Shown: positions 4,162-54,789, numbered from the stretch's first letter. The stretch: DNA of 64,000 nucleotides from Candidatus Bathyarchaeota archaeon (GCA_963807605.1 CAWECG010000003.1:32001-96000); one strand, 5' to 3'. Numbers and translations are program-made. Notes: generated from the letters alone by a model not told the origin.

Positions 4162-4383
4162 CTGATGGAATCTTTGCGCCACACACAAGAACTAGACAGT
4201 TATTCAGAATCCGCAAAGAGTCGGGTCATATGATGAGGCTAGTTATTAGTACCGTAACCTTTTTCTATGCAGCATAGCGCGCGCGTTTTGGGATACTAGC
4301 ACAATTACATTGTGTAATGGTCGCGCCTAACTTCTGGGAGAAAATAAGGATAAAGAAGGTTGGAAAGCAGGCTAGTGTTGGCT

Positions 4384-5094
4384 TCACATCTCATTGTGGC
4401 TACGCGCGTGTACGAGATATGTCGCAACAGCTAGAATCGCAATCATTACTCCAATAAGCGTAACTAGGCTATTCGTATCCAGAAGCGGTTGAGCAACCAG
4501 TGCTGCTTGAGTAGATGCAGGTGATACAGTCGTTGATGGAACAGTCTGGGTAGTACTCGACGTAGGCGATGAAGAAGGGGCAGTTTGTGGTGGACTAGGT
4601 GAGGCTACGTTTGGAATCCGAGGGCATCCGGAACAGTCCGCGATGATTTTGAAACTATCAAAGCCTACGATGGTATTGCCGGAGAGAACAGGATTAACTA
4701 GGATCACGCAGGTATGAGGTGTGCGAATCACGGACTTAGCGTCATACCAGCTATACACCTTCTCTGTTGAACATTGGTGCAGATATTCAGGAAGACCGTC
4801 GTGATCATCGTCCTCGACGAATCCGCATATCACTGTTGGAGGCGATGATCCTAATGGTGGTTGACCATTTGCTATTCTAATGTGCGCAACAGGAATGATG
4901 CTAGCGATTATCAGGAGGACTATTGGTAGAATCGAACCTTTGCGAGGCATGACCAGTGTCCTTGCTCTTTGCATCGTTATTGAGCTCTTCATAAGCATTT
5001 CCGCCCGCTTGGCATAGGTGCAAATCTGAGGATCATGCGAAAATGCGCTCCTGCGGTAGCTAGAGCAAGCAGAATTCCTAGGGATGATGGCCAT
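4384..5094 (-). CDS. Secreted/membrane-anchored protein with Ser/Thr/Pro linker (true start probably downstream of the annotated one)
   Basis: Hydrophobic signal segment, Cys-containing domain, S/T/P-rich linker, C-terminal TM. Confidence 0.6.
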   Translation of the reverse strand: MAIIPRNSACSSYRRSAFSHDPQICTYAKRAEMLMKSSITMQRARTLVMPRKGSILPIVLLIIASIIPVAHIRIANGQPPLGSSPPTVICGFVEDDDHDGLPEYLHQCSTEKVYSWYDAKSVIRTPHTCVILVNPVLSGNTIVGFDSFKIIADCSGCPRIPNVASPSPPQTAPSSSPTSSTTQTVPSTTVSPASTQAALVAQPLLDTNSLVTLIGVMIAILAVATYLVHARSHNEM

Positions 5095-5124
5095 GCTCGA
5101 TGCTTTTGGCTAGCTTGCTAGCCA

Positions 5125-5586
5125 TCAGCACGCGCGGCTCGATTGAGGTGATGTTGGCGGGTTCTCGCGTCTCCATGAGATGTTTATCGGACCGGCTTGG
5201 CCAGCATGAGTTATTGCTGTGTCACCTGTTACGTTGTCCGCTACGCAGATGTAGAGGAAGAAGTCACCGACCGTGTCAGTGAGTATGGCACCGTCAGGGG
5301 AGTAGTAGTTTCTTTGATCACTTGGCGGAACGTAGAGGCTTCCAGGCAGCAGAAATGCTATGTGGCCCGGAGCATGTCCGCCAAAGTCTTTCGGAGTATG
5401 GAATCTTGGTTGGCCGTTGCCAGCTACATTAGTTGGACTGACTGGAAGGCCGCCTGCGGTCGTCTCTCCAATCTTTCCTGGCAGTTGGTCACCCAATGTG
5501 TAGTGGGCTGCGACCTGCTGTACAGTAGCTAAGGCAGCTAATACAAACATAGTTACGCAGAGCGTTGCGAGTATTTTTGTAATCAT
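5125..5586 (-). pseudogene. Secreted protein, apparently truncated at a CGCGCG junction
   Basis: Signal peptide present. The ORF ends ...SS-RAC* across CGCGCG at 5131-5136. Confidence 0.5.
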
Positions 5587-5821
5587 GTTCTACTTCTCTA
5601 GGCCACTTCAATTCAGTTGTTGAAGGGAATTGGATAGCTGACGTGAGCGCTAACATTAGATGCAAAACTGGTATTTTTAAGATTTAATTCAATCTAGTCG
5701 TATCCAGATTTTTTATGTCTGGCAACGGCCTTGTTTGACCTAGGCAAGGCCAGCGAATCTTTAGGGAGATAGGGAAAAACTAGTTTGACGGCGTCTATGG
5801 CCTGAGAGATCCGGTAGAATT

Positions 5822-7465: not shown

Positions 7466-7609
7466 CTTGACGACCTTCGGTTAAACATGCCAAATGCTGG
7501 AAAGTCAGGATTCATATTAAATACACGCGTTGTTAAGCAAATCGCTTCCTACAAGGGCTCGTACGAGCGTGCTTGACCGTGTTCCGTGAGATAAGCGCGC
7601 GCTGGCCTG

Positions 7610-7685
7610 ACTTACACGTGTAATTTACACGTCGATTTCCAGACTTACACGATCCAGCTATAACGCCGTTATTCCCTATATCCCC
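7610..7685 (+). mobile_element. Casposon-like terminus remnant A1 (CACGT iterons ... CCTATATCCCC)
   Basis: About 85-90% identical by eye to 9310-9383 and 17710-17786. Abuts the core at 7686-7699. Confidence 0.7.
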
Positions 7686-7824
<139 letters not shown>

Positions 7825-7865
7825 ACCTGCTTAGCGCCCTTGTGGTAAAGAAGGTGTGGCGCTCT

Positions 7866-9309: not shown

Positions 9310-9400
9310 TTACACGTGATATTTACACGTCGAATTTCAGACTTCCACGATCCAGCCATAACCCCGTTATTACCTATATCCCCATCACCGAGGGGCACAC
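9310..9400 (+). mobile_element. Casposon-like terminus A2 + array site 3 (core ATCACCGAGGGGCA, 9384-9397)
   Basis: GTTATTACCTATATCCCC directly followed by a core 11/14 identical to consensus. Confidence 0.7.
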
Positions 9401-9437
9401 AACTGTAATGGCTAGCTAAGGTTAAGGACGTTCGTAA

Positions 9438-9959
9438 CTATGGCAGTCCTGGCTGACTCGGTGGTAAGGCGAATTTTATGAATGGAAAGCCTGTAGCCAC
9501 ATGACAGTTATTGCATCCTTCTATTCCATTGTTGTATGCTGTCTCGAACTGATTCCAATCCTTCGCGTCTATAGCCTTGTCCAGAGGGTCGAGGTAGGCA
9601 CTTTCGAAAGCCTTGAGTAAAGGCGCTCTCCCCGGCCTCGTAGTCTCCCCCACCTCCTGTATCTCCCTAGCTTCTGTCAACTGGTATTTTGCAAGATCCC
9701 AATTACCAGCCTTAGCTGCATAGTAGATTTCATAATATCTCTGGCCGTACTCGATCATTACAGTGCCCAACCCAGGCTGAAGTTCAGCAATCTGGCCCAA
9801 TGTCAGATTACCATGCGAAGTTTTCAACGTAACGTTTTCAGCTCCACTGTAGGGTAGCTGCGAAACTTGAGCAGCTCGAAAGTTCAAGACCAAAGATGTG
9901 GTTGCAACTCCGAGAGCCACAAACGCAATGATTATTGCAACGGCAATACTACGTTCCAT
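9438..9959 (-). CDS. Membrane-anchored helical-bundle c-type cytochrome-like protein
   Basis: N-terminal TM, C-terminal CNNCH. Confidence 0.7.
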   Translation of the reverse strand: MERSIAVAIIIAFVALGVATTSLVLNFRAAQVSQLPYSGAENVTLKTSHGNLTLGQIAELQPGLGTVMIEYGQRYYEIYYAAKAGNWDLAKYQLTEAREIQEVGETTRPGRAPLLKAFESAYLDPLDKAIDAKDWNQFETAYNNGIEGCNNCHVATGFPFIKFALPPSQPGLP

Positions 9960-10298
9960 ATTAAATGACTGTTTTCAATCACAAATTTAAGCTTGGTGTG
10001 CACTTAACACAGCGTGTGCGCTAGAAACCATACGCGCGCGCACTACAATAACGGCTCGCTACGCTCGCCGAGTCCGAAGAACGGATGAATTGCGATTCTA
10101 CTGTCTCTCGATTCAGTTGGAGCGTTCAAAGTACTTTCTAAAATCACTTTCAGGCGTGAGCGATCAAGCGACGCATCGCCTGGCGGAAACGTTCCTCGCT
10201 CTCACGCAGGACTTGCTCCGCGTTCTTTTGCCGGGTAATGTCTCGCGCAATTGTTGAAGCACCAACTATCTTGTCGGCAGAATTTGAACTCTAGTTTT

Positions 10299-16678: not shown

Positions 16679-17070
16679 GCGCGGCCCCCAGTACTCCAGC
16701 GAAGCCTTCAGGAACGAGGCAAGACGCCTAGGCGTAGAACCAGTTCATACCATACCCTAGAAACCAGATGAAGGGCAAACAGGTTCTACGAATCGACCGG
16801 AAGTTCCGCTCACACGGACCTGCCCGTCTGGAGCAAATGATCCGACACAGAACTGCAGTAGAGAGTCACATCTCGACTCAAAGAACACTATGGACTACGA
16901 CAGCTTCGAACACGCGGCCTAAGAAACGTCTACACACACGTAATCCTATGCTTGAATGCTATGCTGGCCACCGCTCTATCTGCGATCAAACATGGAAGCA
17001 TCCATAAGATGCGGTCACCAATCCAGTTCACAAAATTGACAGGTAAGACATAATATTGCAAGAGGCTAGC
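16679..17070 (+). mobile_element. DDE transposase C-terminal remnant (IS5/IS4-like)
   Basis: QYSSEAFR..LGVEPV-IPYP..RTAVE across frameshifts; bounded by short GCGCG runs. Confidence 0.55.
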
Positions 17071-17154
17071 GCGTTCTATCAGTAGACTTTTTCTACGACA
17101 GCTGATAAAATGCAGAGACCTGCACCCAGGATGATAATTCTGAACAGAAAATTC

Positions 17155-20893: not shown

Positions 20894-21050
20894 CTTCTCT
20901 GACCAAGTCCGGAACAGGTTTGTCAAAATCGATTTGTTTTGTTTTTCCGAGAATGAAAATCGCCAGTTCCTGAGTTTTCAACATTATCATGCTATCCCAC
21001 CGATAGTATTTGTTTCGGTGTAATACAGGAGAATTGAAGGAAAACCTCAG
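20883..21050 (-). pseudogene. cas1: Casposase (Cas1-solo) C-terminal fragment
   Basis: LRFSFNSPVLHRNKYYRWDSMIMLKTQELAIFILGKTKQIDFDKPVPDLVREDS resembles the casposase pattern W..(I/V)..K..ELA.(Y/F)(I/L).GK...(L/I)DF..P...R.D (from memory). Not in the ORF track. Confidence 0.7.
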
Positions 21051-21286
21051 CTAATCCATATCGCCAGTGACAAACCCTTTATTCTGGAAACCACGAACTA
21101 GGCTAGAGAAACACCACAAGACTGCATAGAGTCGGGAATGAAAAGGGAAATGGAAATGTAGGCGGCCGCACCACTCTAGCAATGAATAGATACAATTAAC
21201 GCGCGCGTACATGTATGAAGGGGAGCAGGGTCATGTATCCATTGCACAAAGCCGCGGGCGTCTCGATAGCTAAGGCGGATCTGCCA

Positions 21287-21309
21287 GCGCGCGCTGGTGA
21301 GCACACACA
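21287..21309 (-). repeat. Array site truncated by a (GC)4 run: GCGCGCG-CTGGTGAG-CACACACA
   Basis: Read directly. Confidence 0.75.
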
Positions 21310-21708: not shown

Positions 21709-21986
21709 GTATCAGAGTGATCAACGTGAAAGTAAAAGCGCTAAAAAGGCCCAACACACCCATCGCATATCCTTGATGATGAATAAAATCAGAATAACCT
21801 TCATCGTCGGCGCCCAATCAAATCACCCTACCGATAGCGAGTTTGCTTGATTCTCCCCCACCTCCCGTTTCAAAGGATATAAGATTTGTCAATGTTTTAC
21901 AACACTTCTTCATTGCTAAACGCAGTCTCCCATAGCAAGTCTCGTGTGCATAGGGCGGCGTGATTTCAAGGCGCGCGCTATTGATT

Positions 21987-22020
21987 GTGTGTGTGCCTTG
22001 CTGGTGAGCGACGACGACGA
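21987..22020 (-). repeat. Array site: (GT)n - CCTTGCTGGTGAG - (CGA)4
   Basis: Read directly. Confidence 0.9.
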
Positions 22021-22105
22021 AAAAAGATGTGCCTCGCTTCGCTTGGCAGATAATGAAAAGGAAAGTATGCAAGGAAGTTATGAAGAAAGGGAAAGACTGT
22101 TTTGG

Positions 22106-22606
22106 TTAGTCTCTTCTTCTCTTAACCACTACAACCGCGGATAATGCAGCGACTAGTCCTGCTAAGGTTAGGTAGGGTGTTAGAATCTCAAGCTTGTTAG
22201 TTGGTAGGGTGACTCCGCCCACAGGAAAAGTGACTGCATGGAGAATAATGTAATAGTTTTCTCCATTCAGATTGATGCCAAATGGACCCGGAGGGCCGAC
22301 CTGGCCGTAAACTTCGACTAGGTCTCCAACCTGAACATCAGCATAGCCCTGTTGTGGAAATGGAGGACTTACAACAAAGCCAACCTGAACGGTGCTGCCG
22401 ACCGTGAGGCTTCCTGAGCTATCAGAGATTATCTCAAGAATCTGGACATCCCACCAATGTGAACCGATGAGAATCCCCTGATTGGTGACCAAACCTCTGA
22501 TCTTAGCCTCTGTACCGTTAGCGGTAACTACAGGAATTATCGTACTCATAGCGGAGAGAACTAGCAGCATCATTACCGGTGCAAGAACTGAATAATTCTT
22601 ATTCAA
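22106..22606 (-). CDS. Secreted beta-rich protein with PVGG..NKLE-TM-KRRRD tail
   Basis: Signal peptide; tail near-identical to the gene at 1-868. Confidence 0.8.
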   Translation of the reverse strand: MNKNYSVLAPVMMLLVLSAMSTIIPVVTANGTEAKIRGLVTNQGILIGSHWWDVQILEIISDSSGSLTVGSTVQVGFVVSPPFPQQGYADVQVGDLVEVYGQVGPPGPFGINLNGENYYIILHAVTFPVGGVTLPTNKLEILTPYLTLAGLVAALSAVVVVKRRRD

Positions 22607-26130: not shown

Positions 26131-26306
26131 CCAATCATAGACAGCTAGCTGGAGATATTTGCATGCAATCTCGATTGATGGGCGGTTATGATCGAAACCC
26201 AACAATAGCTCAACGATGCTTATCCGGAAGATCTATTCCCTTGGTAACAAACTCCATTTGGATCATGACAGTATCAATTCACTTCTAGCGCGCGCGTTCT
26301 AGCGCG

Positions 26307-28729: not shown

Positions 28730-28803
28730 GAATCTCTTATGTTCGTGAAGGGGCGTATATCACGTAGAGCGCGCGCCTACACTATGTCACTTCATTCGAT
28801 CGG

Positions 28804-30019: not shown

Positions 30020-30370
30020 AGCAATTCACATCATAATTTTTGGGTGAAACGTGCTTATCAGGTCTTCTACGAAATCACTGAGAGAAGTAACCGCATCCCG
30101 CGTCGCAACACCAGCTTACCCAAACACGGCCAAGTGTCTATAAGCAGCCGCGGATGACCCTATTAGCGCGCGCTCATCAAAAAAAAGAAGATCTGGACTG
30201 CGCAATTGCAGCATCTGAGAGAGTAGGAAGGAGCATAAGGATCATATAGTCCTTTCTCACGGTCTACCCCCGAGTGAATATTTTGATTCTTTCTAGCGCG
30301 CGCTAGCTGCCGCGTCCACAGTTCACATACTCGATGAACTCTTTTATTCTAGACTCCAAACTATAAAATT

Positions 30371-34578: not shown

Positions 34579-34898
34579 CGGCTGAGCGCGAATTCGCGTG
34601 AATGTCTTCTCTACTCACATATAGCGATAATGTGGTGCAAGAGTCTCTCAAAATCGGCAGTGTTACATCTGGAACGAGTGCTAGGTTTCTGGTATCAGGC
34701 AGTAGCAGTTCTTGTAGGATACTAGACGTAGAGGTTGCAGGCAGTGCACTCTCGACCCGTACCAATGGAAATTGAAGGCTTTCAGCGATCATGGAGTAAA
34801 CCTTGTCAAATGTAATGATAGAGACCTCTTTAGAGTTATTGATTATTTCAACGGTTAAGTGCTCCCTATGAGGCCGAAACGCGCGCGCGTTGATTCTC

Positions 34899-35597
34899 TC
34901 ACCTCAAAGATTCGGCAGATGCGTCGAGACCTGTCACCTGTTGATAAGCGAAAATGAACCAGGAGGTTACAGTCCATGCCTCCAGCCCTGTGGAGTAGAT
35001 CTTGGCAGCTTCATCAATAAGCCTCATCGTCTCTTCAGAGAAGTGTCCTCTCGGAAATCCTCCTATGATGACGGTCGGCCTCTCCTGCTTTGCTAGGAAC
35101 GTGGCTAGGCTTTGTATTCTTCTATCCTTTCCTTGGAGAGTCAATCCAGCGGTGTATGTTGGTGCAATCGTCTTCAACAGTTGGATTAGGTTCATCGATC
35201 GAATCTCAAGAAGCGGTTGGCCACTTGGGGGTACTCGACCGGACTCATAGAGCTGTTCAATTAATCCCTTGAATCGCTCACTGTTTCGGGGTATTCTCAC
35301 CTCAGGTGATACTGTGATGACGCGATTTTCGAGGGTGTGTACGTAGACTCTCAATCGTCCTGCTAGGTTTAGGGGGGAGCCTAGAGAAGTTAACAAGGCG
35401 ATGTGCACTATGTCCGGTCTGCCTCTTCTCTGGGCGTTCGGGATCCTCGCCATGGCTCTATGATGGTAAGATCTGTCCAAGAGAAGCTGTTCCGGTCTCT
35501 TACCTCTTCTCCTCGCGTCCCAAATTATTTGGGGATGGTGGACCAATTCTATTGGAACCAGTTCAAGCGCAGATTCCGCAAGTACAATCGTAAGCAA
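34899..35597 (-). CDS. nep1: rRNA pseudouridine methyltransferase Nep1
   Basis: LAESALELVP, RGRPDIVH, RIPR..RF.GL, GGFP.G.F. Confidence 0.93.
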   Translation of the reverse strand: MLTIVLAESALELVPIELVHHPQIIWDARRRGKRPEQLLLDRSYHHRAMARIPNAQRRGRPDIVHIALLTSLGSPLNLAGRLRVYVHTLENRVITVSPEVRIPRNSERFKGLIEQLYESGRVPPSGQPLLEIRSMNLIQLLKTIAPTYTAGLTLQGKDRRIQSLATFLAKQERPTVIIGGFPRGHFSEETMRLIDEAAKIYSTGLEAWTVTSWFIFAYQQVTGLDASAESLR

Positions 35598-36936: not shown

Positions 36937-37458
36937 TTAATGGGAATCATTCAATGCATTTTTTGTATTGCTGAGGAAGCGCGCGAGCGCGCTTGGTGTT
37001 TCTTTAGGGCTTGCCCTAAAGTAGTAGTTGGTTCTCTTCTTTATCTTGCCACACTTTGTCATGCGGCCCAAAACTGCTTCCAGCCATGTTTTTGAGTAGT
37101 TGGTGGCTTTCAGGAGATTAGCCATGTTTGCTCTACCGTCTGGTTGAGCGTCTATTGCATCGAAGACTATCTTACATTGTTGTTCGATGACTTTTTGACA
37201 TTCGTCGGGCGTCGGGATCACGTAGTACTCACCTTTCTTCGCGATCTTGCCAATCGTTATTCCGAATTGCAGGACGGCTTTTGGATACTGACTGGGCTTG
37301 AATCCTGCAGCTTTCATTAGTTCTTCAAATCTCAAGTGTCCCTTTGGTGTTTTGGATATAGCTTCAGTCATATCGGTGAGGATGCTTTCGAATAACTGAG
37401 CAAGAGACGTTCTCTTGATGTTTCTTGCTTTCTGTAGAGTATCCTCGAATTTTTTCAT
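36937..37458 (-). CDS. Hypothetical tandem wHTH-like protein; C-terminus crosses a CG junction
   Basis: Two helix-wing-like units; GCGCGCGAGCGCGC at 36979-36992. Confidence 0.45.
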   Translation of the reverse strand: MKKFEDTLQKARNIKRTSLAQLFESILTDMTEAISKTPKGHLRFEELMKAAGFKPSQYPKAVLQFGITIGKIAKKGEYYVIPTPDECQKVIEQQCKIVFDAIDAQPDGRANMANLLKATNYSKTWLEAVLGRMTKCGKIKKRTNYYFRASPKETPSALARFLSNTKNALNDSH

Positions 37459-37491
37459 TCTGTCAGGGTTGATTGCTTACGCGCGCGCGCG

Positions 37492-39336
37492 ATCCGACGA
37501 ACTCGTGACTACATCAAGCGCAACTACCCAGACGCTACTGTGAACGGGAAGAAGGTAATCTTCCCCGAACGACGCTTGGAAAACACGAGCTACAAGCTCG
37601 GTTCAACATACAAAGGCATGTACAAGACAATATCCCACGCTTTGACTGAAGAGCTGACCATGGCGTACTACCGCCTCCTCGAATACAAGAAGGCCGAGAA
37701 GCTCAGCATGGAGGAGCAACTGGCGCTCGGACGGATGATTGCCCTTGAAGGCATATTCAGGACTATCATGCTCAAGAGGCTTGAAAGCAGCGTCGAAGCA
37801 TTCAGGAAGAGCGTTTCGAAGCACATCGATTTTCTGCACGCATTGGAGGAACATTTGAAGCAAGGCAAGCTCCTCACAAAAGAAGCATTCAATCGGTACC
37901 TGATGAGCGTCGACGAAGAACTGGAGGAGTATATCGAGACACTCTCCGATTTCAATCCTGACGAATACAACCTTGACAAACTGTTCAACGACATCAACAA
38001 GGATCTCGCCGTTTTCACAGGAATCTTGTCCAAGGTCAAAGTCATCAGGCCGGAAGATGACGCCAAGCTGTTGGAGTTCAAAAGGAGGCTACACGAACTG
38101 GCCGCCAAGGGACAAGTAATCGTTTTCACATATTACGCTGATACGCTGGATTACATTCATGAACAAGTTTCAAAATCAGTTGATTTTGCTAATCTCAAAA
38201 TAGAGAAAATCTCCGGCGCAACCCCGCCGTCCAAACGGGAAGCTCTCGTTAATGATTTCCTCGCTAAGAAAATTGACGTTCTCATGAGCACTGATGTCCT
38301 CTCGGAAGGAATGAATCTGCAGTCTGCGCAGTTCGTCATTAATTACGACCTCCATTGGAATCCAACTCGTATGATTCAGAGAGCGGGAAGGATAGACAGA
38401 ATCGGATCGCCTTACAAGCAGATTTTCGTATACAACTTCTTTCCGGAAGACGAGCTCGAAGAACTTCTAAGGTTGGTGCAGATACTCCAAAACAAGATTA
38501 TCGATATCGATGAGTCCGTGGGCCTTGACCAGACCATCTTAGGAGAGACAATCCACCCCAAAGTCTTCGGCGTAATCAGGCGCATTTTGAAAAAAGATGC
38601 TACCATCCTCGAAGAACTGGAGACCAGCGCCTTCGGAGGCGGAGAAAAATTCTACCAGCCGCTGAAGGATTTCCAAAAACAACGGGTGATAGAGGAGCTG
38701 GATCAGATACCTTTCGGCATACACAGCGGACTTCAGAGCCAGAAATTACGTGCGATATTCTTCTATTACAAGTACGGACAAGATTCCCATTTCTGGTGCC
38801 TTGTCGACCCAGGGTCTGGAACCATCATCAGTCGGAACAAGAGCGAAATCGTTGATTATCTGGCTTGTCCGACCAATGAGCCTAGGGTCATACCCGACTT
38901 CTTCGAGGCCGTGTATGAAGCGAACAAGAAAGCTCTGGAAGACATACAGACTACTTACAAGAAAATGGAGCAGGTGCAGGGAGTAGATACGACTCTCGTG
39001 GATTACAGCAAGGAACAGAGCACGAAGTTCGTCAAGGACCTATTGAGAGAAATCGAACTTCAGCTTGAGGAATATCTTGATGAGTTTCCAGCAGAGAAGA
39101 ATCTTGAATCGAGATGGGAAGTAATAAGAACGAAGATGCTCGGCATCCCTCTTACCAAAAGGCGATTGCGTGACATCAGACGCATCTGGAGACATTATAA
39201 GAACGCGAAAGATTGGAAGAAGCTGATAGACGAACTCGATCAATTCTTGGCACAGAAGGGTCTACAACAAAGAGAGCCGATTGAGCCGTTCGACGCCGAA
39301 AGATTGAAGCTGGTAGCGATCGACTTCATATCCTGA
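37492..39336 (+). pseudogene. SNF2-type helicase, C-terminal half only
   Basis: Starts in frame IRRTRDYIKRNYP directly after (CG)6. Has STDVLSEGMNLQ and NPTRMIQRAGRIDR. No Walker A/DEAH half. Confidence 0.85.
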
Positions 39337-39838: not shown

Positions 39839-40233
39839 CTCTTCTTTCCTTTGGGTATTGTGTTTCTGTTCCGTCTCGTCGAACGTACAAGCCGAATCGT
39901 CTTTGACATGTATACGCGCGCGCGTTCTCTAGCGCTTCTGCTCGCTGGGGCGTCTACTCTTGATTGACCTTTTCCGCTAGCGTTCCTTCAGTTTGCGCTC
40001 AAGATTCTCAAGCCTTTTGGTGGCCTGCTCAAACTGTAGCAAAGTCAAGTCTACTGTCAGGATCATGATGCAGGTTTCTGCAGTGATTGTTGGCCTAAAC
40101 ACATTCATCCAAACCAGTGCTATAACTTCGAGGTTAAGGGAGGAAGTCATGCCAAAAAGACGAAGGTGGAAACCAAAGCGACTGTGGATCCTGCCGAGGT
40201 AGAAGACCCGCACATTGAGACAGAATAGATCTG

Positions 40234-41127
40234 CTAATGTGAGCGCACCCATTCCTCATATTTCCAGCGAGACTCGGCGAGGCTGGTCATCGGGGCCACG
40301 CTCCCACTGTTCAGCCCGCCTTTTTTTACGCGCTCGAAGAGTTTCATCGCCTTTTCAGGCTCAGCGTGACCGTGAATAAGCAAGGCCGGATTAGCTCTAT
40401 CAATTATGCCGCTGACAGTTTGAGCTTCAAGGTCCTTCCTGTTGCCGATATAGCTGCAGATCAATCCGGATGTAGCATTCAGACTATTAGGAACCGACAG
40501 GACCCGCATTGGATCCACACTCAGAATAAAATGGCTCCTGTCATAGACGAAGGTTTCCAAGGCTAGGATCTTGCTAAACCTGAATCGGGCAACCTCATGT
40601 GACTTTATTGGATTCCTAGCATCATAATGAGTAAAGTCTCTAATGTCAAAGTCTAAAGCATAGACGTGAAAACCACGCCGACCACTGAAGACAATCGCGA
40701 TCTTGGAATAGTAGTTTTCAATCTTCTCGCAGAGCTGAACCGTCATCTTCCGGCTGAGCTCAACACACTTACGGCAGACACCTTTGACGATTAGACAGTT
40801 ATGGAAATTCTGCCATCTCTGAATGACGTATGCGTCAATATCCACGGCATAGCTTCCACCAATTGGAACTGCATGTCGTGCCTTGTTTTTTCTGCCAACT
40901 CTCTCGGGGAAGAGCCAGTCAAGCACGGAAAAGTAGACATGGGAGGGAGCATATTTGACACAGTATTCTTTGAGTTCTCGCTGATTGATTCGGTTTTGAA
41001 ACTTGTTCAGCTTCACAAACTTGTGGTTTAAGATTTCAAGCCGGAAATGCTTCCTTGAATAGTTCCAGGGGAGTTTGCCCTCCAGAGGTGCAGCTTGATA
41101 GTAGGATTGGATCTCGTGGGGTCGCAT
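40234..41127 (-). CDS. Archaeo-eukaryotic primase (PriS-like, mobile-element type)
   Basis: P.HVYFS, VDID, FSGRRGFHV, D..R....PNSLN..SG. Confidence 0.82.
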   Translation of the reverse strand: MRPHEIQSYYQAAPLEGKLPWNYSRKHFRLEILNHKFVKLNKFQNRINQRELKEYCVKYAPSHVYFSVLDWLFPERVGRKNKARHAVPIGGSYAVDIDAYVIQRWQNFHNCLIVKGVCRKCVELSRKMTVQLCEKIENYYSKIAIVFSGRRGFHVYALDFDIRDFTHYDARNPIKSHEVARFRFSKILALETFVYDRSHFILSVDPMRVLSVPNSLNATSGLICSYIGNRKDLEAQTVSGIIDRANPALLIHGHAEPEKAMKLFERVKKGGLNSGSVAPMTSLAESRWKYEEWVRSH

Positions 41128-41703: not shown

Positions 41704-41904
41704 CGAATCAGAGTTTTTGAGTGCTAAACAACTACAGCTTTCTTCTTAGACTTTTCTGCTTTATACTCCCTCGCCCACTACGCGCGCGTAAAAGAGCCAC
41801 TAGGCTTGATAGTACTAAGAATAATGGTACTTGGGAGAGCTTTGATGGCTAATGCTGTAGATCAGATTGTTGTTTCGAATACTGCAGATGTATACTCTGG
41901 ATAG

Positions 41905-42150: not shown

Positions 42151-42243
42151 TGCCAACGCGCGCGCGTAGCTATGCTTGATTCGTGAAAAGTTGGCTGACG
42201 AGCGCGGTTTCTTCCGTTCTAGCGACAAAGGTTAACAGGTTAC

Positions 42244-42411: not shown

Positions 42412-42555
42412 GTGTTCTATGTGTGTTTGTCGGGCATGATAAGACTTGCTAAATTCTTATGCGCCAGAGAATTACGCGCGCTCGACTCTGCTTTGCGTCG
42501 TGCGAACGATGAAGGCGCGCGCGTCAGTGTATCTGTCTTTTGATCGCAGGGCATG

Positions 42556-42963
42556 TTACTTCTTATAGAGTGTTGAGAGCACGTATCCATATGAGATGCT
42601 TATGAAGAATCCTACGTAGATGAGCCCAACCGCTATACTGGTAGCCATGTCAACGAGGCCGACGAATGAACCGGCTGCGATGTTCATGACGAGCCAGATC
42701 ATCAGGCCGAAGTAGACGCCTTTCATGACGCCTTTCCCAGGAATCCCATCATAGAACCTTTGGTAGAACATGCTGAATATTGCGCCCCAGATTATTGTGA
42801 GGACGATCGCGCGCGCTAGAACAAAAGTTGAGGTTGAACCTGGAGCAGCTGTCATGAGCCCTGACGAAACGCCTATGATCGCAAAAATGACTCCTACTAT
42901 GCCACCGACAAGTCCTGCAATAGCACCCGCCGCAATAACGCTTTTCAAATACCCACCTCCCAT
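42556..42963 (-). CDS. 4-TM membrane protein
   Basis: GAIAGLVGG, IPGKG..KG..FGL..W. Confidence 0.7.
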   Translation of the reverse strand: MGGGYLKSVIAAGAIAGLVGGIVGVIFAIIGVSSGLMTAAPGSTSTFVLARAIVLTIIWGAIFSMFYQRFYDGIPGKGVMKGVYFGLMIWLVMNIAAGSFVGLVDMATSIAVGLIYVGFFISISYGYVLSTLYKK

Positions 42964-43071
42964 CTCGTGGATCGGTAAAAAAACCGTCAGAGCAAGAACG
43001 CGTCAAATAGATTTAACACTTGTCGCGCGCGCGTAGGATCCTGACGGCATAGCCCCAGCGGGAGACTCTTC

Positions 43072-43784: not shown

Positions 43785-44336
43785 ATGAAGACTGGGCCTG
43801 CGGTAGAAACATCCGAACCGGCCAAACTCAACATTCAGGTCTCAACTGAGTCAAAGGCGAAGATGTTCTTTGGGCTGATACCTACGAAGGAAATCGTCAG
43901 AGGTCAGAAATTCAAGATTAAGCTCACAATTCGAAATATGTCAAGGACGAAGCCCTTCAAGGGGAGATATCATATTGATATCGTATATCCAACAAGAGAG
44001 AGAAATCGCATTAAACATGAGGCATTGCAACCATGGGAACCGGGGAGCGAATTGACTGAAGAGATTGAATTTGAGGCGCTCTCTGAAGGATATGCTCTAA
44101 TTGAGTTCTATCCAGAGAGAGGTGAATCCATCGAGATTGTAGATGATGCTGGCAATACTATCGAGCATGGGCCCGCGTCTGCGCATGAACCGCCTGCGCT
44201 TGGGATCTTTCATGTAACAACTAATCGAGACATCTACGCCTTCTATGCAGTTGTGATTAGCCTTTTTGCACTCTTGATAATTGCGGCTGAGAAGGTCGTC
44301 TCTTTACTGAATTTCTTCCTTCGTCGGCAGCCCTAG
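43785..44336 (+). CDS. Hypothetical protein with C-terminal TM
   Basis: Beta-rich domain plus TM. Confidence 0.6.
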   Translation: MKTGPAVETSEPAKLNIQVSTESKAKMFFGLIPTKEIVRGQKFKIKLTIRNMSRTKPFKGRYHIDIVYPTRERNRIKHEALQPWEPGSELTEEIEFEALSEGYALIEFYPERGESIEIVDDAGNTIEHGPASAHEPPALGIFHVTTNRDIYAFYAVVISLFALLIIAAEKVVSLLNFFLRRQP

Positions 44337-44889
44337 TTCAAGCCCATCTTTGAGCGCGCGCGCGTAAGCGTAAGATCAAAAGAAAAGCAGCGAACGTACC
44401 GTTCGCTGGGTATGGGAAAACAGGGCTACTGTTCCTCATGGAATCTGCGTCTACGGGCCCAGCCTTACAGCAATGGTATGCTTGCAGGATCCGGTTCTGT
44501 CAAGGCTTCGGGTGATATTTCTCCCTATCAAGTTGGGGAGATTCCTTGTGGGGATTCTGGTGGCTTGTTTCGAATTAGTTGCAGAACCTCGTCTTCAGTG
44601 ATAGGCTCATTTTTTTTGAAGCCAACTTTTACCATCTCGAATCTGATTGCATCAAATTTCTGACTTGTACCTTGAGCCAGTATTTTCTACGCGCGCGCGT
44701 CGCTTAGGCTTCTTCTTCGCCAACTTGGGCTTGCAACTGCCTGACTGTGAGAGCCCAATGCTAAACGAAAAGTTCTGAAGATCAAGGCGGCCTGGCAAAA
44801 GAAGACACCGGATCGAGTCGGGCGGCACCCTAGAAAGTGCTTTATCGTCAGATCAAAGATTACAAACATGATGCCTAGGGTGTTGCCCA

Positions 44890-48664: not shown

Positions 48665-49000
48665 CACTAAAGAAATAGAAGACCCCCCCCCAAGGCAGCC
48701 CCTATCCGTGAAGCCATCAAGAAGATCAAAACTCTCCTCGAGAACGACCCATACAGTCAACCAATCCACTAGGGGATCCCTTGAAAACACCATGCATCAT
48801 CCAGAAAGAACCTTAACGTTTTCTTCATGGATTCGTAATGATGACTTACAACTACTCTTGATCGTCTTGTTAGTGCACACCATTTCCAGCACACATTTCG
48901 CAGTAGGGGCAGTAAGAATACCATTCATCGCAAAGAACACCAGTAGAAAGACAGTTTGGTCTGGGTCGAGACGCAGCGGAAGATACCTCTCGCGCGCGCG

Positions 49001-49428: not shown

Positions 49429-51618
49429 TTGTCTAAGACAGATACTTCTGTCGGAAACCTTGTCGAATGGATGAGGAGTGGGGAACTACGCCTCCTAGAG
49501 ATACAGCGCCGGTATGTATGGCCCGCAACACGTGTGAGAGACCTCCTCGATTCGTTGTACCGCCAATACCCGACTGGCACCATCCTCGTCTGGGAGACTG
49601 ACCAACCGAAGCCAAGTAAGAATCTGGCCGTTTCACAAGAAGAGAGTCCCTTCAAGGGACGAAGGCTGCTCTTAGATGGCCAACAGCGACTCACCTCCCT
49701 CTACGCGGTCATACTCGGCCAACCCGTGACAGTCCGAGGACGCAAAAAACCAATTGAGATTCTGTTTAACCTCGAGCATCCGGAGAAGTTTGAAGGAGAA
49801 GTGGAAGAGATTGAATACGACACAAGGACTGACGACTCAGATTCTGACGACTCAACTGAGGAAGAAAACACCCCCAACGTCTAGCAGCGACTGAAGCAGA
49901 GGACATTCGTTGTAGAAAGCAAGGCTCTACTCGCGGATCCGCACTGGGTCAAGGTAACAGACATCTTCACGAAATCTGATGCACAAATCCTCAAACCATT
50001 AGTGAAAAGCCTCGACGATCCAAACTATGAAAAATACTCTGAGCGATTACAAAAAGTCCGCAAGATCAAGGATTATCCATATGTAGTGCAAGTTCTAGAC
50101 AAAAGTCTTGACTATCCAGAAGTCACTGAGATTTTTGTCCGCGTTAACTCCCTTGGCATGAAGCTGCGCGGATCAGATCTAGCACTTGCCCAGATAACGT
50201 CACGTTGGCAAGACTCGTTGCGACTTTTCGAAGATTTCCAAGAGGAATGTGAGGAACGAGGCCTCACGATCGATCTCGGAGTTCTCGTCAGAGCAATGGT
50301 CGTCTTTGCCACAGATCATAGCAGATTTCTAACAGTCAATACGATTCTCATTAATAAGTTGAAGTCAGCATGGGAAACCACCAAAGATGGCGTTCAGTTC
50401 GCCGCAAACTTCCTTCTAGCCAACGCTGCGATAGAAGACATCAGCCTACTTTCGTCTCCCATCTTCATCATAACACTAGCTTACGCTTTGACCAAGAGAG
50501 GCAAGCAACTGACCGGTGAGGAAGAGCGCGCACTGAAGCAATGGCTCTACATCGCAAGTGCTCGTGGCCACTATTCAGGCTCTTCTGAGTCGACTCTGGA
50601 CAGCGATCTAGCGGCAATTCTTAAGGGCGGTGCATTAGAGCTGCTTAACATTCGCAATCAACTCGGCGGAATGCCTATCTTGCCAAGTGATCTAGCCGGC
50701 CGTGGAAGAAATAGTCTCCTCTTCCCCATGACGTACCTCGCGTTGAAGGCACTTGGTGCGAAAGACTGGAGCACCCAACTTGGACTTAGCCTCGCAAACC
50801 AAGGACATCAACATGCAATCCAACATCATCATATTTTTCCAAAAGCCCAACTCAGGAAGGCGGGTTACGAAAGAAGCGAGATCAATGAAATCGCCAACAT
50901 GGCCTTTATCTCGGCTGGAACGAACCGAGAACTGTCAACCACCTCTGCAGAGGAATATCTCGCAGATATCCTGAAACGCCTTGGCAAGCAGTCCTTGGAG
51001 AGTCACTGTATTCCAACAGAGCCGAGCCTTTGGAAAATAGAATCATTCCGTGAGTTTCTCAAATACAGACGCGCCGCTCTTGCAAAGGCAGTCAACGATT
51101 TCATCCTACAACAAGGACCTGAATCAGAAGCAGTTGACATAGAGAAGCTAGTAGATCTAGGCGAAAACGAGAACGTCGAGTTCAAGACTTCGGCACGCTG
51201 GGACTACCGTGCAAACATGGTCAACAAGGCTTTGGAGAGGGTTATTGTGAAATCTCTGGCTGGGTTTCTGAACGGCAAGGGCGGAGTACTCATTCTTGGT
51301 GTGGACGACAGTGGTGCATTGGTTGGGTTGGAGAAGGATTATTCCACATTGTCCAGCAGACCTAACCGAGATGGATACTATCAGTTTCTGGTAAACCTGT
51401 ATTCGTCTCTGGGACGAGACATAAGCAGCAATATCTCCGTGGTATTTCACAACTTGAAGAATCGCGAAATATGTGCGCTGAAGATAGGCCACAGCTCGAG
51501 GCCTGTCTGGGTTGAGGATGGGATACTGAGGAGATTTTACCTTAGAAGCGAAAACACCACACAGGAACTCAATGCTCAGGAAGCAACAGAGTACATCAGA
51601 ATTAAGTGGCCCAAGTGA
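49429..51618 (+). pseudogene. GmrSD-like (DUF262 + HNH) protein fused to Schlafen/AlbA_2, with an in-frame TAG at 49882
   Basis: QRRYVW, LDGQQR, HHIFP, EFK, FLN..GG.LILGV.D. The frame continues through the TAG into ORF 50002. Confidence 0.85.
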
Positions 51619-51977
51619 GGGATGGGAACATGCAAATCAATCCCCAGATTCGCGAACTTGCCTACGATACTTTGCCTTCAGACACGCTGAAGAAGGCTTA
51701 CCGGCTAGCGCGCGCTATTCCTTAAGGAAGAACTTAGAGGTAAAGACATTTTTCGAATCTGGTCCCATCCAGGAAAAACCATCTAAGAATAACTTCCTAG
51801 TCTTCGACTTATGACTCTTGGGACTCGGATCCAACGGTGTATGGTGGGCGATTGTGGTTGTTTTAAGCATGCTTTCAAGTTGTTCTTTCCTGCCGCCCAA
51901 ATTGAGGTTATGTTTGCGCAGTAACCTATATCCTTATATTTCATATGACGTAATCCCCTTTAGAGGGGGAAAACAGA

Positions 51978-52784: not shown

Positions 52785-52788
52785 TTAG

Positions 52789-53739
52789 ATGGAGTTAGAT
52801 GGACTGAAAAGATATGCAGCGTCAAAACAGATAGCTTTGGGCACAGTCGAAAAGGACTGCGTGCTGTCTGTAGTGCTTTCACAGCTTTCTAAGAGCCAGT
52901 TTGCAAACCAGCTAATCTTCAAAGGCGGCACAGCCATAAAGAAGGCCTATTTTCCAGACGCAAGATTCTCAGTAGATCTTGACTTCAACTTCTTCGACAT
53001 TTCAGGTGATGCGCTTGTTAAGGAAATCTCGGAGCTTTTCAGCGGAAAAACCATCCTAGAGACAGTATTTGAAGATATCAAGAATGTGGAGATGGGGAAT
53101 GATAAAGTGCTGTTACGCTTGAGGTACAAAGCACAACTTGACCATCTTGACAGTGTAAGACTCGACCTCACCTTCAGGGAACCAGTAATGCTCGAACCAA
53201 GATGGTGGACGCCAAAAGATGATTATGATGTGACAAGAAGAATGACTTGTGAACATCTGACCTTAGGAGACATCAGGCCTATAACGAACGTTGAAGAACG
53301 ACTTTACGGGTGTAAACTCGGCAGAATGAGCGGAACAGCAAGAAACCGCAGAGCATGTCTCGACTGCAAAATGCAGAGCCCGAGAAGGAAGGACCCACTC
53401 CCCTCAGCCTTCAAGGCAATGTCTCTAGAAGAAATGCTATCAGAGAAAGTCAGAGCATGCCTAATGAGAGGTAGGCCGAGGGACCTCTACGACATTTGGT
53501 TCCTTCAGTCAAAAGGCATCATCTTAGACCGTCAGATGACCATCGATAAGCTTCACCTCTACCAAGAATTTCATCAGAGAATACCCAATATCAGGGAAAT
53601 AAGAGAAAACTTGGTAGTTATTGAACCAGAATGGGACAGGAATCTTGCGGCCCTAGCTCCTTCAAAGACATATCCGAAGTTTCAGGAGGCTCTCGAGAGC
53701 CTGATTCTCTTTTTAGAAAAAACAGGTTGGGAAACATGA
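52789..53739 (+). CDS. abiEii: Type IV TA toxin AbiEii nucleotidyltransferase with Cys-rich insertion
   Basis: EKD, FKGGTA, RFS.DLDF, EKVRA, RDLYD. Confidence 0.9.
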   Translation: MELDGLKRYAASKQIALGTVEKDCVLSVVLSQLSKSQFANQLIFKGGTAIKKAYFPDARFSVDLDFNFFDISGDALVKEISELFSGKTILETVFEDIKNVEMGNDKVLLRLRYKAQLDHLDSVRLDLTFREPVMLEPRWWTPKDDYDVTRRMTCEHLTLGDIRPITNVEERLYGCKLGRMSGTARNRRACLDCKMQSPRRKDPLPSAFKAMSLEEMLSEKVRACLMRGRPRDLYDIWFLQSKGIILDRQMTIDKLHLYQEFHQRIPNIREIRENLVVIEPEWDRNLAALAPSKTYPKFQEALESLILFLEKTGWET

Positions 53740-53826
53740 CCCAGCACACATCTTAGCACACTTAACAAATTACGCTTGATCCACATGGAAGTTGATGCTG
53801 CCCATTCGTGTCTGAACGTGATACTG

Positions 53827-54672
53827 CTATGTTTTCTCTGTTAATTTTCGCTCGAGATCCTCCAGTCTTCTTGTTGCTTCCTCAAACTTTAGTGTGAGCT
53901 TCTTTACAGCCTCGTCGCGTCTCTGCATCTCTTCCTGGAGCTGGGAGACCTCAGCTGATCCCGAGATTATGTTAAGATACTTCTCAGCTATCCTGTACTG
54001 AGTCAGCGTATAGTTCTTGTCTTTGAAGAAATTGTCATACTGATTCGGATCTGTAACATGACCCATGAAGAATTCAACAGCCTCCAGATCTAACCCCTCC
54101 TTCTTGCCTTGAAGATGAAGTAGGGTTCTCGCTGTATCCCTGAACTCGTGCAGGTTGAAGCCGTGTCGGTTACCAGTTGAGCCGCCACGCTTAATGTATT
54201 TCAGCCTTTCAAGAAGCCGCAGATGCCTCATGCGTATACCATGTTTGCGTACAGCCTTCCCATCAGCATCCAGGTAGATGGGTTCACCGTCTCGAGGCCA
54301 GCCCCTCTTCCTCTCAAAATACTCCTTCCAGGCAGCTAGAGCATCGTAGCCGATGAAGGTGTGACATTCCCGCTTGCCCTTGTTCTCCTTTCGGCCAGCA
54401 TAACTAAACATGAAGGGCTCCTCAACTCCCTTCTCCTTCAAGTGTTTGACGAGAACTCCAGCGCAAGTCGTGTTGAAGATCATGAATCTCTCAAGATCCA
54501 TGATTCCCATCCATAAAGTCAGGTAGAAGGCTTTCCGACCAACATCCACATTATCAATTAAACTCTTAACAACCTCAACACTCAACCTGCCAGAACTCGG
54601 CGACTTATCAGGATTAATCCGAAAATCATCAGCAGGCAGGGAAACACGGTTCTTCTTGAAGAAACCCCTAAT
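53827..54672 (-). pseudogene. Tyrosine integrase, 5'-truncated at (CG)5
   Basis: LHEFRD, FFMGH, NQY. The frame IRGFFKKNR starts directly at the CG run. Confidence 0.8.
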
Positions 54673-54789
54673 CGCGCGCGCGTACGGGCTATTGATTCGC
54701 GATCGTGTATTCGAGTATTGGCTCAGATTGAGAAGCGCTTCTAGGTAGCCAGATCTGTGATCGAGTAGAAGCTGCTGAACCCTGACGAC

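What the first reader, a model, noticed from the sequence alone, without database searches (positions are those of the whole stretch)
4277..54682. (CG)n runs as a recurring junction scar at gene truncations
Seen: about 23 alternating CG runs of at least 8 nt (4277, 7595, 10033, 21200, 21287, 21971, 26288, 28769, 30166, 30296, 34880, 37480, 39915, 41781, 42157, 42515, 42808, 43024, 44354, 44690, 48991, 51708, 54673). Nine are at least 10 nt, and many are flanked by TA. Assuming about 45% GC, chance predicts roughly 1 run of 8+ nt and under 0.1 of 10+ nt per 64 kb. None lies inside the intact housekeeping genes; several fall exactly where genes break. Inference: self-complementary (CG)n is added to or used at DNA ends, then annealed and ligated. 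That would be an end-joining or deletion pathway with a fixed signature, possibly sharing chemistry with the (CA)n/(CGA)n tails.
Basis: partly seen in the sequence, partly recalled or inferred. Interest (0 to 1): 0.85.

Follow-up and report, generated by a model that had tools for sequence, protein, structure and literature searches.

The report
GC palindrome patches at DNA joints
In this hot-spring archaeon (Bathyarchaeia) a tiny all-G/C palindrome, usually A-GCGCGCGC-T, lies where DNA was cut short, duplicated or joined to unrelated DNA, so it looks like a fixed patch left by an unknown DNA-joining process rather than a control signal.

Summary
All 23 (CG)n runs are real and at the stated coordinates; chance predicts about 0.7. 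The motif is discrete, not a random tail. Genome-wide run lengths fall about five-fold per base up to 7 nt, then peak at 8 nt. AGCGCGCGCT occurs 106 times against 1.2 expected.

About 90% of the 320 runs lie between genes, clustered in gene-poor variable regions. Repeated DNA blocks stop at runs: 70 of 286 sit at a block boundary and 5 are spanned, against 65 and 182 of 1049 control positions. The other copy usually lacks the run.

In the window, two genes lose their 5' part exactly at a run: an SNF2 helicase at 37480 and an integrase-like gene at 54673. Four runs lie at or within 5 nt of the ends of duplicated blocks. One is an in-frame scar inside an ORF.

The same 10-mer is enriched in six genera of this family and in unrelated Brockarchaeota-like hot-spring genomes. 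Ku, PolX and IS5-type transposases do not track it. Two IS families merely land in it.

Best reading (about 0.5): a palindromic filler added at illegitimate DNA joints, enzyme unknown. Reads could not be checked. This scan had already noted the motif elsewhere in this genome and in another archaeon.

The parts
4277..4285 (.). run GCGCGCGCG, flanks TA/TT, about 100 nt past the stop of ORF 4384..5094(-)
   Evidence: no paralogue to judge it by
7595..7602 (.). run A-GCGCGCGC-T, 130 nt upstream of the multicopper oxidase start (7465, minus strand). A repeat-family match starts inside the run. A long (CA)n tract follows at about 7700-7830.
10033..10041 (.). run CGCGCGCGC at the right end of duplicated block 9385-10032
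   Evidence: The block is 98.5% identical to C1:518464-519110. The paralogue continues ...ACCATA|AACTATC with no run.
9385..10032 (+). 648-nt recent duplicate, with a run at its right joint but none at its left joint
21200..21207 (.). run TAA-CGCGCGCG-TA, 5 nt after the end of block 21043-21195 (96% identical to window 4009-4161)
21287..21294 (.). run A-GCGCGCGC-T in an unannotated spacer
21971..21978 (.). run G-GCGCGCGC-T, followed by a (TG)n ... GGTGAGC(GAC)n repeat element
26288..26296 (.). run TA-GCGCGCGCG-T in the convergent spacer between a zinc-ribbon ORF and pepQ. A second TTCTAGCGCGCTAG follows directly (local tandem copy).
28769..28776 (.). run A-GCGCGCGC-C, 27 nt upstream of the ATG of an intact GNAT gene (28804)
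30166..30173 (.). run TA-GCGCGCGC-T in the divergent spacer upstream of pepN
30296..30303 (.). run CTA-GCGCGCGC-TAG in the same spacer, 67 nt upstream of the pepN start
34880..34889 (.). run A-CGCGCGCGCG-T, 10 nt past the stop of intact EMG1/NEP1 (34899..35597, minus strand)
   Evidence: The orthologous spacer in sister species G001 also holds a run (GCGCGCGCGC). About 260 nt present in G000 are absent in G001, and this indel abuts the run.
37480..37491 (.). 12-nt run at the 5' break of an SNF2-type helicase gene
   Evidence: The run reads RARA in frame. SNF2 homology (IRRTRDY...) starts directly after it.
37438..39336 (+). 5'-truncated SNF2/DrmD-like helicase ORF that keeps only the C-terminal helicase half
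   Evidence: Residues 8-356 align to DrmD profile positions 337-679 of 1021. Pfam finds only Helicase_C. No SNF2_N domain was found anywhere in the genome.
39915..39924 (.). run TA-CGCGCGCGCG-T in the convergent spacer between a DUF365 ORF and a primase-like ORF
41781..41788 (.). run TA-CGCGCGCG-TA; first of five runs within 1.3 kb
42157..42166 (.). run A-CGCGCGCGCG-TA
42515..42523 (.). run at the left boundary of duplicated block 42524-43023
   Evidence: Homology to C1:409096-409605 begins 3 nt after the run.
42524..43023 (-). 500-nt block bounded by runs on both sides, 90% identical to C1:409096-409605. It carries ORF 42556..42963 (weak DUF5518 match).
42808..42816 (.). run inside the ORF: a local, in-frame scar
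   Evidence: The paralogue has CATCAC where the window has CGCGCGCGC (+3 nt). Both flanks are collinear.
43024..43033 (.). run at the right boundary of the same block
44354..44364 (.). 11-nt run A-GCGCGCGCGCG-TA, 18 nt past the end of ORF 43785..44336
44690..44699 (.). run TA-CGCGCGCGCG-T, 190 nt upstream of the KAP-family NTPase (QatA-like) gene
48991..49000 (.). run T-CGCGCGCGCG-T inside overlapping ORFs that match no family
51708..51715 (.). run TA-GCGCGCGC-TA, 90 nt past the stop of a Schlafen/GmrSD-like ORF
54673..54682 (.). run at the 5' break of an integrase-like (tyrosine-recombinase-like) gene
   Evidence: The run reads ARA in frame. Homology to the G001 orthologue starts directly after it.
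53830..54789 (-). 5'-truncated integrase-like ORF
   Evidence: It is 68% identical over 260 aa to G001 L187:1197-2285. The G001 protein has about 99 more N-terminal residues and no run at that point. 'Integrase-like' is my reading of the sequence motifs; Pfam gave no hit.
16689..17073 (-). fragment of the IS5-like element IS-A, ending in ...GGCTAGCGCG
   Evidence: About 81% identical to the full copies.

Best explanation
The runs are copies of one short palindromic unit. Its core is GCGCGCGC, usually read as (T)A-GCGCGCGC-T(A), with 9- and 10-nt variants. The unit is put in when broken or non-contiguous DNA ends are joined.

What is shown: the unit appears de novo at arbitrary breakpoints, and the parental copy lacks it. 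It appears at joints with unrelated DNA, giving gene truncations and duplicated or captured fragments. It also appears at re-joined local breaks, giving small in-frame replacements inside ORFs.

What is inferred: the unit is a self-complementary all-G/C bridge. Either it is copied from an existing copy, primed by 0-2 nt of (T)A overlap with the broken end, or an unknown symmetric enzyme supplies it. The two extended ends then anneal through it and are sealed.

Once in place a copy persists, decays slowly by point mutation, and acts as a hot spot. Two IS5-like insertion sequences insert into its centre, and further insertions or deletions occur beside it. The responsible enzyme is not identified.
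For: 1. A real, discrete motif. AGCGCGCGCT occurs 106 times against 1.2 expected, and in spacers 99 times against 0.34. Run lengths peak at 8 nt after a steady decline.

2. Junction association, with a control. Of 286 intergenic runs, 70 sit at the boundary of an intragenomic homology block and 5 are spanned by one. Of 1049 random positions in the same spacers, 65 sit at a boundary and 182 are spanned.

3. De novo origin. In 117 of 141 boundary alignments the other copy has no CG run at that point. Recent examples are 98.5-100% identical up to the run.

4. Two genes in the window are cut at a run: the SNF2 helicase and the integrase-like gene, judged against its G001 orthologue.

5. Local scars with collinear flanks and in-frame net change occur inside ORFs.

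6. Overlap at the joint. Where a run is preceded by A, the parent has A at that position in 25 of 39 cases and T in 9 of 39.

7. Even-length, perfectly palindromic forms are over-represented (my calculation from the counts).

8. Runs cluster in gene-poor variable regions and are nearly absent from long core stretches.

9. One-mismatch variants are common, about 125 seen against 38 expected. My estimate from this is roughly 10% per-site divergence, as expected for neutral scars of mixed age.

10. The same motif with the same flanks is enriched in six genera of the family and in a distant Brockarchaeota-like genus.
Against: - No enzyme was found. Ku, PolX and DDE_Tnp_1 transposases do not co-occur with the motif. 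G000 has no RVT_1 or Prim-Pol domain.
- No known end-joining pathway adds a constant sequence.
- Only about a quarter of runs can be tested against a paralogue. The rest are unproven.
- The patch is not obligatory. A 99.8%-identical 1-kb duplicate has a run at one joint and none at the other, as does block 9385-10032.
- One orthologous spacer holds a run in two species whose genes are only about 68% identical. That fits a maintained site or a recurrent hot spot better than a neutral scar.
- Read-level support and population variation could not be examined.
- Gene calls are my own crude ORF caller.
Confidence: 0.5

Rival explanations
1. By-product of IS5-like transposons. The elements insert at GCGC with a 4-bp duplication. 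Excision that keeps both copies would turn A-GCGC-T into A-GCGCGCGC-T. Recombination between IS copies followed by excision would leave the 8-mer at rearrangement joints.
For: - Two IS families (DDE_Tnp_1 plus DUF772; seven copies each, including two older IS-A copies about 85-86% identical) sit in the middle of the motif as TA-GCGCGC[IS]GCGCGC-TA.
- IS-A ends are CG-rich in other genomes too.
- A +4 step fits the 8-nt mode and the 9- and 10-nt classes.
Against: - The distributions disagree. IS-A and IS-B were found only in G000, G001, G002, G008 and G012.
- Motif-rich genera g3, g4 and g7 showed none, as did G077, G108, G124, G177 and G128. IS-rich G012 has 2 motifs.
- Genomes with many DDE_Tnp_1 matches (G059, G138, G214, G285, G246) have 0-3 copies.
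- CG length at the IS ends differs among four of the five young IS-A copies, whose DNA is at least 99.6% identical and whose transposases are identical. So the CG comes from the target.
- Parental sequences at the breakpoints contain no GCGC.
- No AGCGCT to AGCGCGCGCT pair was seen.
- Caveat: short-read metagenome assemblies often lose IS copies.
Confidence: 0.17
2. A recombination or cleavage site. The 10-mer would be recognised by an unidentified recombinase or nuclease. Rearrangements happen at pre-existing sites, which are kept or re-formed by each event.
For: - The exact palindrome is conserved across genera and in a distant lineage.
- It is conserved in one orthologous spacer, with an indel beside it.
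- Some blocks are bounded by runs on both sides.
- The distribution is patchy, like that of an accessory element, even within one genus.
Against: - No conserved arms exist beyond TA. Known recombinases need binding arms of about 11-13 bp (general knowledge).
- Parental copies usually lack any site at the breakpoint.
- AGCGCT is not avoided, so there is no sign of a matching restriction system.
- The integrase-like family tested does not track the motif.
Confidence: 0.15
3. A functional non-coding signal: a protein-binding site, a transcript-end element or a Z-DNA-prone structural element kept by selection.
For: - About 90% of runs lie between genes.
- There is a mild excess 0-20 nt after stop codons, 35 against about 18 expected.
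- The exact sequence is conserved across genera.
- (CG)n and (CA)n are the classic Z-DNA formers (general knowledge). Both are the top enriched words in spacers.
Against: - There is no fixed distance to starts or stops, and density is similar in divergent, convergent and tandem spacers.
- Runs are strongly clustered in variable regions and nearly absent from long core stretches.
- They sit at homology boundaries.
- Many decayed copies exist.
- Some lie inside ORFs as in-frame indels.
Confidence: 0.08
4. Ordinary microsatellite slippage, or an assembly or sequencing artefact.
For: Lengths vary between 8 and 15 nt, and one locus has a tandem copy.
Against: - Run length has a discrete 8-nt mode, not a monotonic decline.
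- The A/T flanks are conserved.
- The same motif occurs in more than 15 other assembled genomes; the record titles seen carry differing isolate and sample codes.
Confidence: 0.03

Closest known systems
Filler DNA and templated insertions at end-joining junctions (NHEJ, alternative end joining, synthesis-dependent MMEJ; Yu and McVey 2010, PMC2943611)
   Same: Extra nucleotides lie exactly at joints between DNA segments that were not contiguous. The parent lacks them. There is 0-2 nt of overlap with the broken end. Both local scars and joints to unrelated DNA occur.
   Different: Known fillers vary in sequence, being copied from nearby DNA or untemplated. Here the filler is one constant palindrome. 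It is not derived from the local flanks, and neither Ku nor PolX tracks it.
GC clusters of yeast mitochondrial DNA (from my own knowledge, not checked here)
   Same: Short G+C-rich palindromic elements scattered in spacers, flanked by TA/TAG-type bases, linked to deletions and recombination, and spreading by an unknown mechanism.
   Different: Yeast clusters are several times longer and form families with internal structure. Here the unit is 8-12 bp, in archaeal chromosomes.
REP/BIME extragenic palindromes as insertion-sequence targets, and IS1272-type elements that land in inverted repeats (PMC5678879)
   Same: Hundreds of intergenic palindromes per genome, with specific IS families inserting in their centre.
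   Different: From general knowledge, REPs are 20-40-nt imperfect stem-loops spread over core spacers and mobilised by a RAYT transposase. Here the unit is a 10-nt perfect palindrome without a loop. It is concentrated in variable regions and sits at homology breakpoints.
Telomere-resolvase sites and hairpin-telomere fusion scars (phage N15 telRL centre TACGCGCGTA, Borrelia ResT; from my own knowledge)
   Same: A TA-(CG)n-TA core; fusion of two hairpin ends would give a perfect palindrome at a joint between unrelated DNA.
   Different: Resolvase sites are long palindromes of about 50 bp. Here palindromy stops after TA. I did not search for a resolvase gene.

Membership tests
Filler DNA at end-joining junctions | Inserted bases lie exactly at a joint between sequences that are not contiguous in the parental copy | tested here: met
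   70 of 286 runs sit at homology-block boundaries, against 65 of 1049 controls. Window cases: 10033, 37480, 42515, 43024 and 54673.
Filler DNA at end-joining junctions | The parental or orthologous copy lacks the inserted bases | tested here: met
   117 of 141 boundary alignments. The G001 orthologue lacks the run.
Filler DNA at end-joining junctions | The insert is untemplated and variable, or copied from sequence near the break (the SD-MMEJ hallmark) | tested here: not met
   The insert is the same palindrome everywhere and unrelated to the local flanks.
Filler DNA at end-joining junctions | Depends on known end-joining factors (Ku/LigD, family X polymerase) | tested here: not met
   G000 has both. 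However, Ku was found in 7 of 301 genomes and PolX in 8 of 301, and neither in motif-rich genus g52 or in G001. Functional dependence cannot be tested here.
Transposon target site or excision footprint (IS5-like) | Elements are flanked by the two halves of the motif | tested here: met
   The IS-A and IS-B copies sit as (T)A-(CG)n[IS](CG)n-T(A): all seven IS-B copies with GCGCGC on both sides, IS-A copies with CG arms of varying length.
Transposon target site or excision footprint (IS5-like) | Motif abundance follows the presence of the element across genomes | tested here: not met
   Caveat: IS copies are often lost from short-read assemblies.
REP-like extragenic palindromes | Imperfect stem-loop of 20-40 nt with a conserved head, spread over core spacers | tested here: not met
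   Palindromy ends 1-2 nt beyond the 8-nt core. Runs are clustered in variable regions.
REP-like extragenic palindromes | An associated RAYT (Y1/HUH) transposase | not tested
   I did not search for PF01797.
Site-specific recombination site (att, attC, dif) | Conserved recombinase-binding arms around a short core, with the site present in both partners | tested here: not met
   There is no conservation beyond TA. Partners usually lack the site.
Microsatellite | Smooth length spectrum and arbitrary flanks | tested here: not met
   There is a peak at 8 nt (147 G-first runs, against 69 at 7 nt) and A/T flanks in 72%.

The most novel reading that the evidence does not exclude
Several thermophilic archaeal lineages (hot-spring Bathyarchaeia, Brockarchaeota-like archaea and, per an earlier unchecked note, Thermofilum) share an undescribed DNA-joining or break-patching process. 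It bridges arbitrary ends with a fixed, self-complementary all-G/C octamer. This would be a sequence-constant repair signature made by an enzyme or small template that is still unknown and is carried as an accessory trait.
Probability: 0.35. Interest if true: 0.9.

Novelty: new variant of a known kind. Interest (0 to 1): 0.75.

Why it matters
Double-strand-break repair without homology is poorly understood in archaea. A constant, readable scar would give a natural record of where and how often such events happened. It would allow gene truncations and fragment captures in uncultured lineages to be dated and counted.

It also points to a missing enzyme or template. The motif splits species of one Brockarchaeota-like genus about evenly, 7 of 14 with it and 7 without. 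That makes a gene-association search directly feasible.

For annotation, the motif flags pseudogene boundaries and IS landing sites in these genomes.

Tried and rejected
- **Promoter or terminator element:** rejected. There is no fixed distance to gene ends, and density is about equal in all spacer types.
- **Extended conserved element (a MITE) around the run:** none found.
- **Simple insertion of a run-bounded segment into a repeat:** the parental continuation was almost never found within 30 kb. Nearly all of the 21 'found' cases were the subject matching itself.
- **Restriction cut at AGCGCT or RGCGCY followed by fill-in:** this would give exactly AGCGCGCGCT. It is rejected because parental breakpoints carry no GCGC and AGCGCT is not depleted.
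- **Candidate determinants that failed to track the motif:**
  - Ku.
  - PolX.
  - IS-A and IS-B transposases.
  - DDE_Tnp_1 in general.
  - The primase-like ORF 40234..41127.
  - The integrase-like family.
- **Domains not found in G000:** RVT_1 and Prim-Pol.
- **Shared mobile genes between G077 and G000:** only housekeeping genes matched. The 70% identity hit is argininosuccinate synthase.
- **Rfam and tRNA scans of the window:** nothing.
- **Literature searches for the motif in archaea or for a constant filler:** nothing relevant.
- **Nucleotide-level synteny with G001:** mostly unusable, because genes are only about 68% identical and the assembly has 380 contigs.


Full report
**Setting.** The window is G000:C3:32001-96000 of a 2.65-Mb, five-contig genome. 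The nearest relatives of its acetate-CoA ligase are Bathyarchaeia metagenome-assembled genomes, several with isolate codes such as JZ, QZM and DRTY that I take to be hot springs. Gene content is archaeal, for example ADP-forming acetate-CoA ligase and archaeal PepQ.

**Observation.**
Nine are 10 nt or longer.
- An order-1 model of the window expects 0.71 and 0.034 respectively.
- The whole genome has 320 such runs.
- About 90% lie outside my ORF calls, although only 23% of the bases do.
- In spacers the (CG)n words, with flanking A and T, are the most enriched k-mers together with (CA)n. AGCGCGCGCT occurs 99 times against 0.34 expected.

**The motif is a discrete unit, not a tail.**
- Before the run the base is A in 83% of 8-nt runs, and after it T in 82%. 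T at -2 and A at +2 are weaker, and beyond that there is almost no information.
- Run counts fall about five-fold per added base from 2 to 7 nt. They then jump to 147 for G-first 8-mers, 72% of them A...T-flanked.
- Among A...T-flanked runs of 8-11 nt, 160 are even-length and therefore perfectly palindromic. Only 37 are odd. If two ends were extended independently, my calculation from these counts gives about 95 odd runs.
- One-mismatch variants are common, about 125 against 38 expected. By my estimate that corresponds to roughly 10% per-site divergence, as for neutral copies of mixed age.

**Where the runs lie.**
- There is no fixed distance to starts. There is only a mild excess just after stop codons. 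Density is similar in divergent, convergent and tandem spacers.
- Runs are strongly clustered in gene-poor variable regions and nearly absent over long core stretches. This window is one such hot region, with 23 runs against a genome mean of about 8 per 64 kb.
- This pattern argues against a general regulatory or structural signal.

**Junction association.**
- I compared 600 nt on each side of every run with the rest of the genome. Homology blocks almost never cross a run and often stop at it.
- Of 286 intergenic runs, 70 sit at a block boundary and 5 are spanned. Of 1049 random positions in the same spacers, 65 sit at a boundary and 182 are spanned.
- In 117 of 141 boundary alignments the other copy has no CG run at the matching point and simply continues.
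- In 22 of 75 cases further copies extend past the boundary, so the run-bearing copy is the truncated one.
- The parental continuation is almost never found nearby, so these are not simple insertions into a repeat.
- Very recent events show clean joints, for example ...CCTTGA|GCGCGCGC| against ...CCTTGA|TGTGAA at 99.8% identity over 1 kb. That block's other end has no patch.

**In the window.**
- **37480-37491.** The open frame reads ...LRARAIRRTRDY.... The run encodes RARA, and SNF2 homology begins directly after it. Only the C-terminal helicase half is present, and no SNF2_N domain exists anywhere in the genome.
- **54673-54682.** An integrase-like ORF is 68% identical over 260 aa to its G001 orthologue. 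Homology starts right after the run-encoded ARA. G001 has about 99 more N-terminal residues and no run there.
- **10033.** The run ends a 648-nt block that is 98.5% identical to C1:518464-519110.
- **21200.** The run follows a 153-nt duplicate by 5 nt.
- **42515 and 43024.** These two runs bound a 500-nt block that is 90% identical to C1:409096-409605.
- **42808.** This run lies inside that block and its ORF, where it replaces CATCAC by nine bases, in frame.
- Other genic runs in the genome are also in-frame indels relative to paralogues.
- Many neighbouring genes are intact: EMG1, GNAT, isochorismatase, pepN, pepQ and nadB.

**Joint anatomy.** Where the run is preceded by A, the parent has A at that position in 25 of 39 cases and T in 9 of 39. 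In the T cases, for example...CTT becomes ...CTA-GCGC. This fits a patch with consensus TA-GCGCGCGC-TA that overlaps the broken end by 0-2 nt.

**Persistence and hot-spot behaviour.**
- The spacer next to EMG1 carries a run in both G000 and G001, although their genes are only about 68% identical. About 260 nt present in G000 are missing in G001, right beside the run.
- Old paralogues show decayed runs such as CGTGCACG.
- So copies can be old and can be re-used.

**Insertion sequences.**
- Two IS5-like families (DDE_Tnp_1 plus DUF772) sit in the centre of the motif as TA-GCGCGC[IS]GCGCGC-TA.
- CG length at the ends differs among four of the five young IS-A copies (DNA at least 99.6% identical, transposases identical). 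The CG is therefore target-derived.
- IS-A and IS-B were found only in G000, G001, G002, G008 and G012, while motif-rich g3, g4 and g7 have none and IS-rich G012 has two motifs.
- Across 301 Thermoproteota, DDE_Tnp_1 load and motif count are unrelated.
- I conclude that the IS exploit the motif and do not make it. The caveat is that short-read assemblies lose IS copies.

**Distribution.**
- AGCGCGCGCT occurs 119 times in G001, 63 in G003, 44 in G010, 40 in G013 and about 30 in each of G002, G004, G007 and G009. The reversed control word occurs 0-1 times in these genomes. Genera g5 and g8 have 0-4 copies.
- In the phylum sample the motif is also enriched in another Bathyarchaeia family (G168, 30 against 0) and in G128 (22 against 0).
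- It is enriched in seven of 14 species of genus g52, with 16-118 copies. The other seven have 0-3.
- g52 is Brockarchaeota-like by record titles, whose isolate codes again suggest hot springs.
- A 20-kb stretch of G077 holds 24 runs of 6 nt or more with the same flanks.
- In g52, the five motif-rich genomes checked (2.0-2.3 Mb) are larger than the five motif-poor ones checked (1.2-1.8 Mb).

**Enzyme hunt.**
- G000 encodes a Ku, LigD primase-polymerase and ligase cluster, and a PolX-PHP polymerase whose stop codon is followed at once by a canonical motif.
- Ku was found in 7 of 301 genomes and PolX in 8 of 301. Neither was found in g52 or in G001.
- G000 has no RVT_1 or Prim-Pol domain.
- The primase-like ORF of the window and the integrase-like family do not track the motif either.
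- A restriction-and-fill-in origin at AGCGCT is excluded by the parental breakpoints and by the lack of site avoidance.

**Verdict.** The wording needs correction. The signature is one palindromic octamer with A/T shoulders, not free (CG)n tailing. Copies persist and act as hot spots and IS targets. No known end-joining factor explains them.

The closest known things are filler DNA and templated insertions (PMC2943611), yeast mitochondrial GC clusters (from my own knowledge) and palindrome-targeting IS (PMC5678879). None of these has a constant filler.

Earlier notes of this scan reached similar readings on other windows of this genome and on another archaeon. I re-tested the junction, IS and distribution claims independently. 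I did not test the Thermofilum claim.

Noticed in passing
window 7700-7830; genome-wide (152 tracts): Most (TG)n/(CA)n tracts inspected are parts of a small multi-copy element of the form (TG)n-CTCACCAGCTAnGG-(CA)n, with the middle piece in either orientation. Many lie next to GATTTGAACC, which looks like a reversed tRNA T-arm, and to a GGCGAGCGTAGCGAGCC motif. One tract in the window runs for about 130 nt.
   Followed up: partly
window 22011-22225 and 749-963: A roughly 215-nt repeat occurs in several copies in G000 and in at least 15 places in sister species G001, at 73-87% identity. It starts with (GAC)n. Its nature is unknown.
   Followed up: no
G000:C1:589600-592250 (L206): A bacterial-type end-joining cluster in an archaeon: an ATP-dependent ligase (apparently lacking its N-terminal part), Ku and a LigD primase-polymerase. 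Ku was found in only 7 of 301 Thermoproteota sampled.
   Followed up: partly
G000:C1:345080-346909 (L205): A PolX-PHP DNA polymerase (609 aa) lies in a run-rich variable region, beside an IS-A copy. A canonical AGCGCGCGCT follows directly after its stop codon. PolX was found in only 8 of 301 Thermoproteota sampled.
   Followed up: partly
G000, e.g. C1:531379-532368 and six more: All seven copies of the second IS5-like family (IS-B) carry one in-frame TGA in the transposase frame. This could be a programmed recoding or frameshift site, or a shared defect.
   Followed up: no
window 1402-2249: Another repeated block of about 860 nt has at least eight copies in the genome at about 85% identity. 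It is probably a further insertion sequence and is not bounded by CG runs in the window.
   Followed up: no
window 37438-39336, 44890-46683, 49429-51618: A cluster of defence-type genes, partly broken. It includes the SNF2/DrmD-like fragment, a KAP-family NTPase (QatA-like), and a Schlafen/GmrSD-like ORF. That ORF keeps only the tail of its GmrSD_N domain, so it may be frameshifted against ORF 49429..49884.
   Followed up: partly
L100:4941-6149 (G077) and G000:C3:1072029-1073192: Argininosuccinate synthase is 70% identical between the Brockarchaeota-like genome and this Bathyarchaeia genome. That is high for two classes and may reflect gene transfer between co-resident lineages.
   Followed up: no
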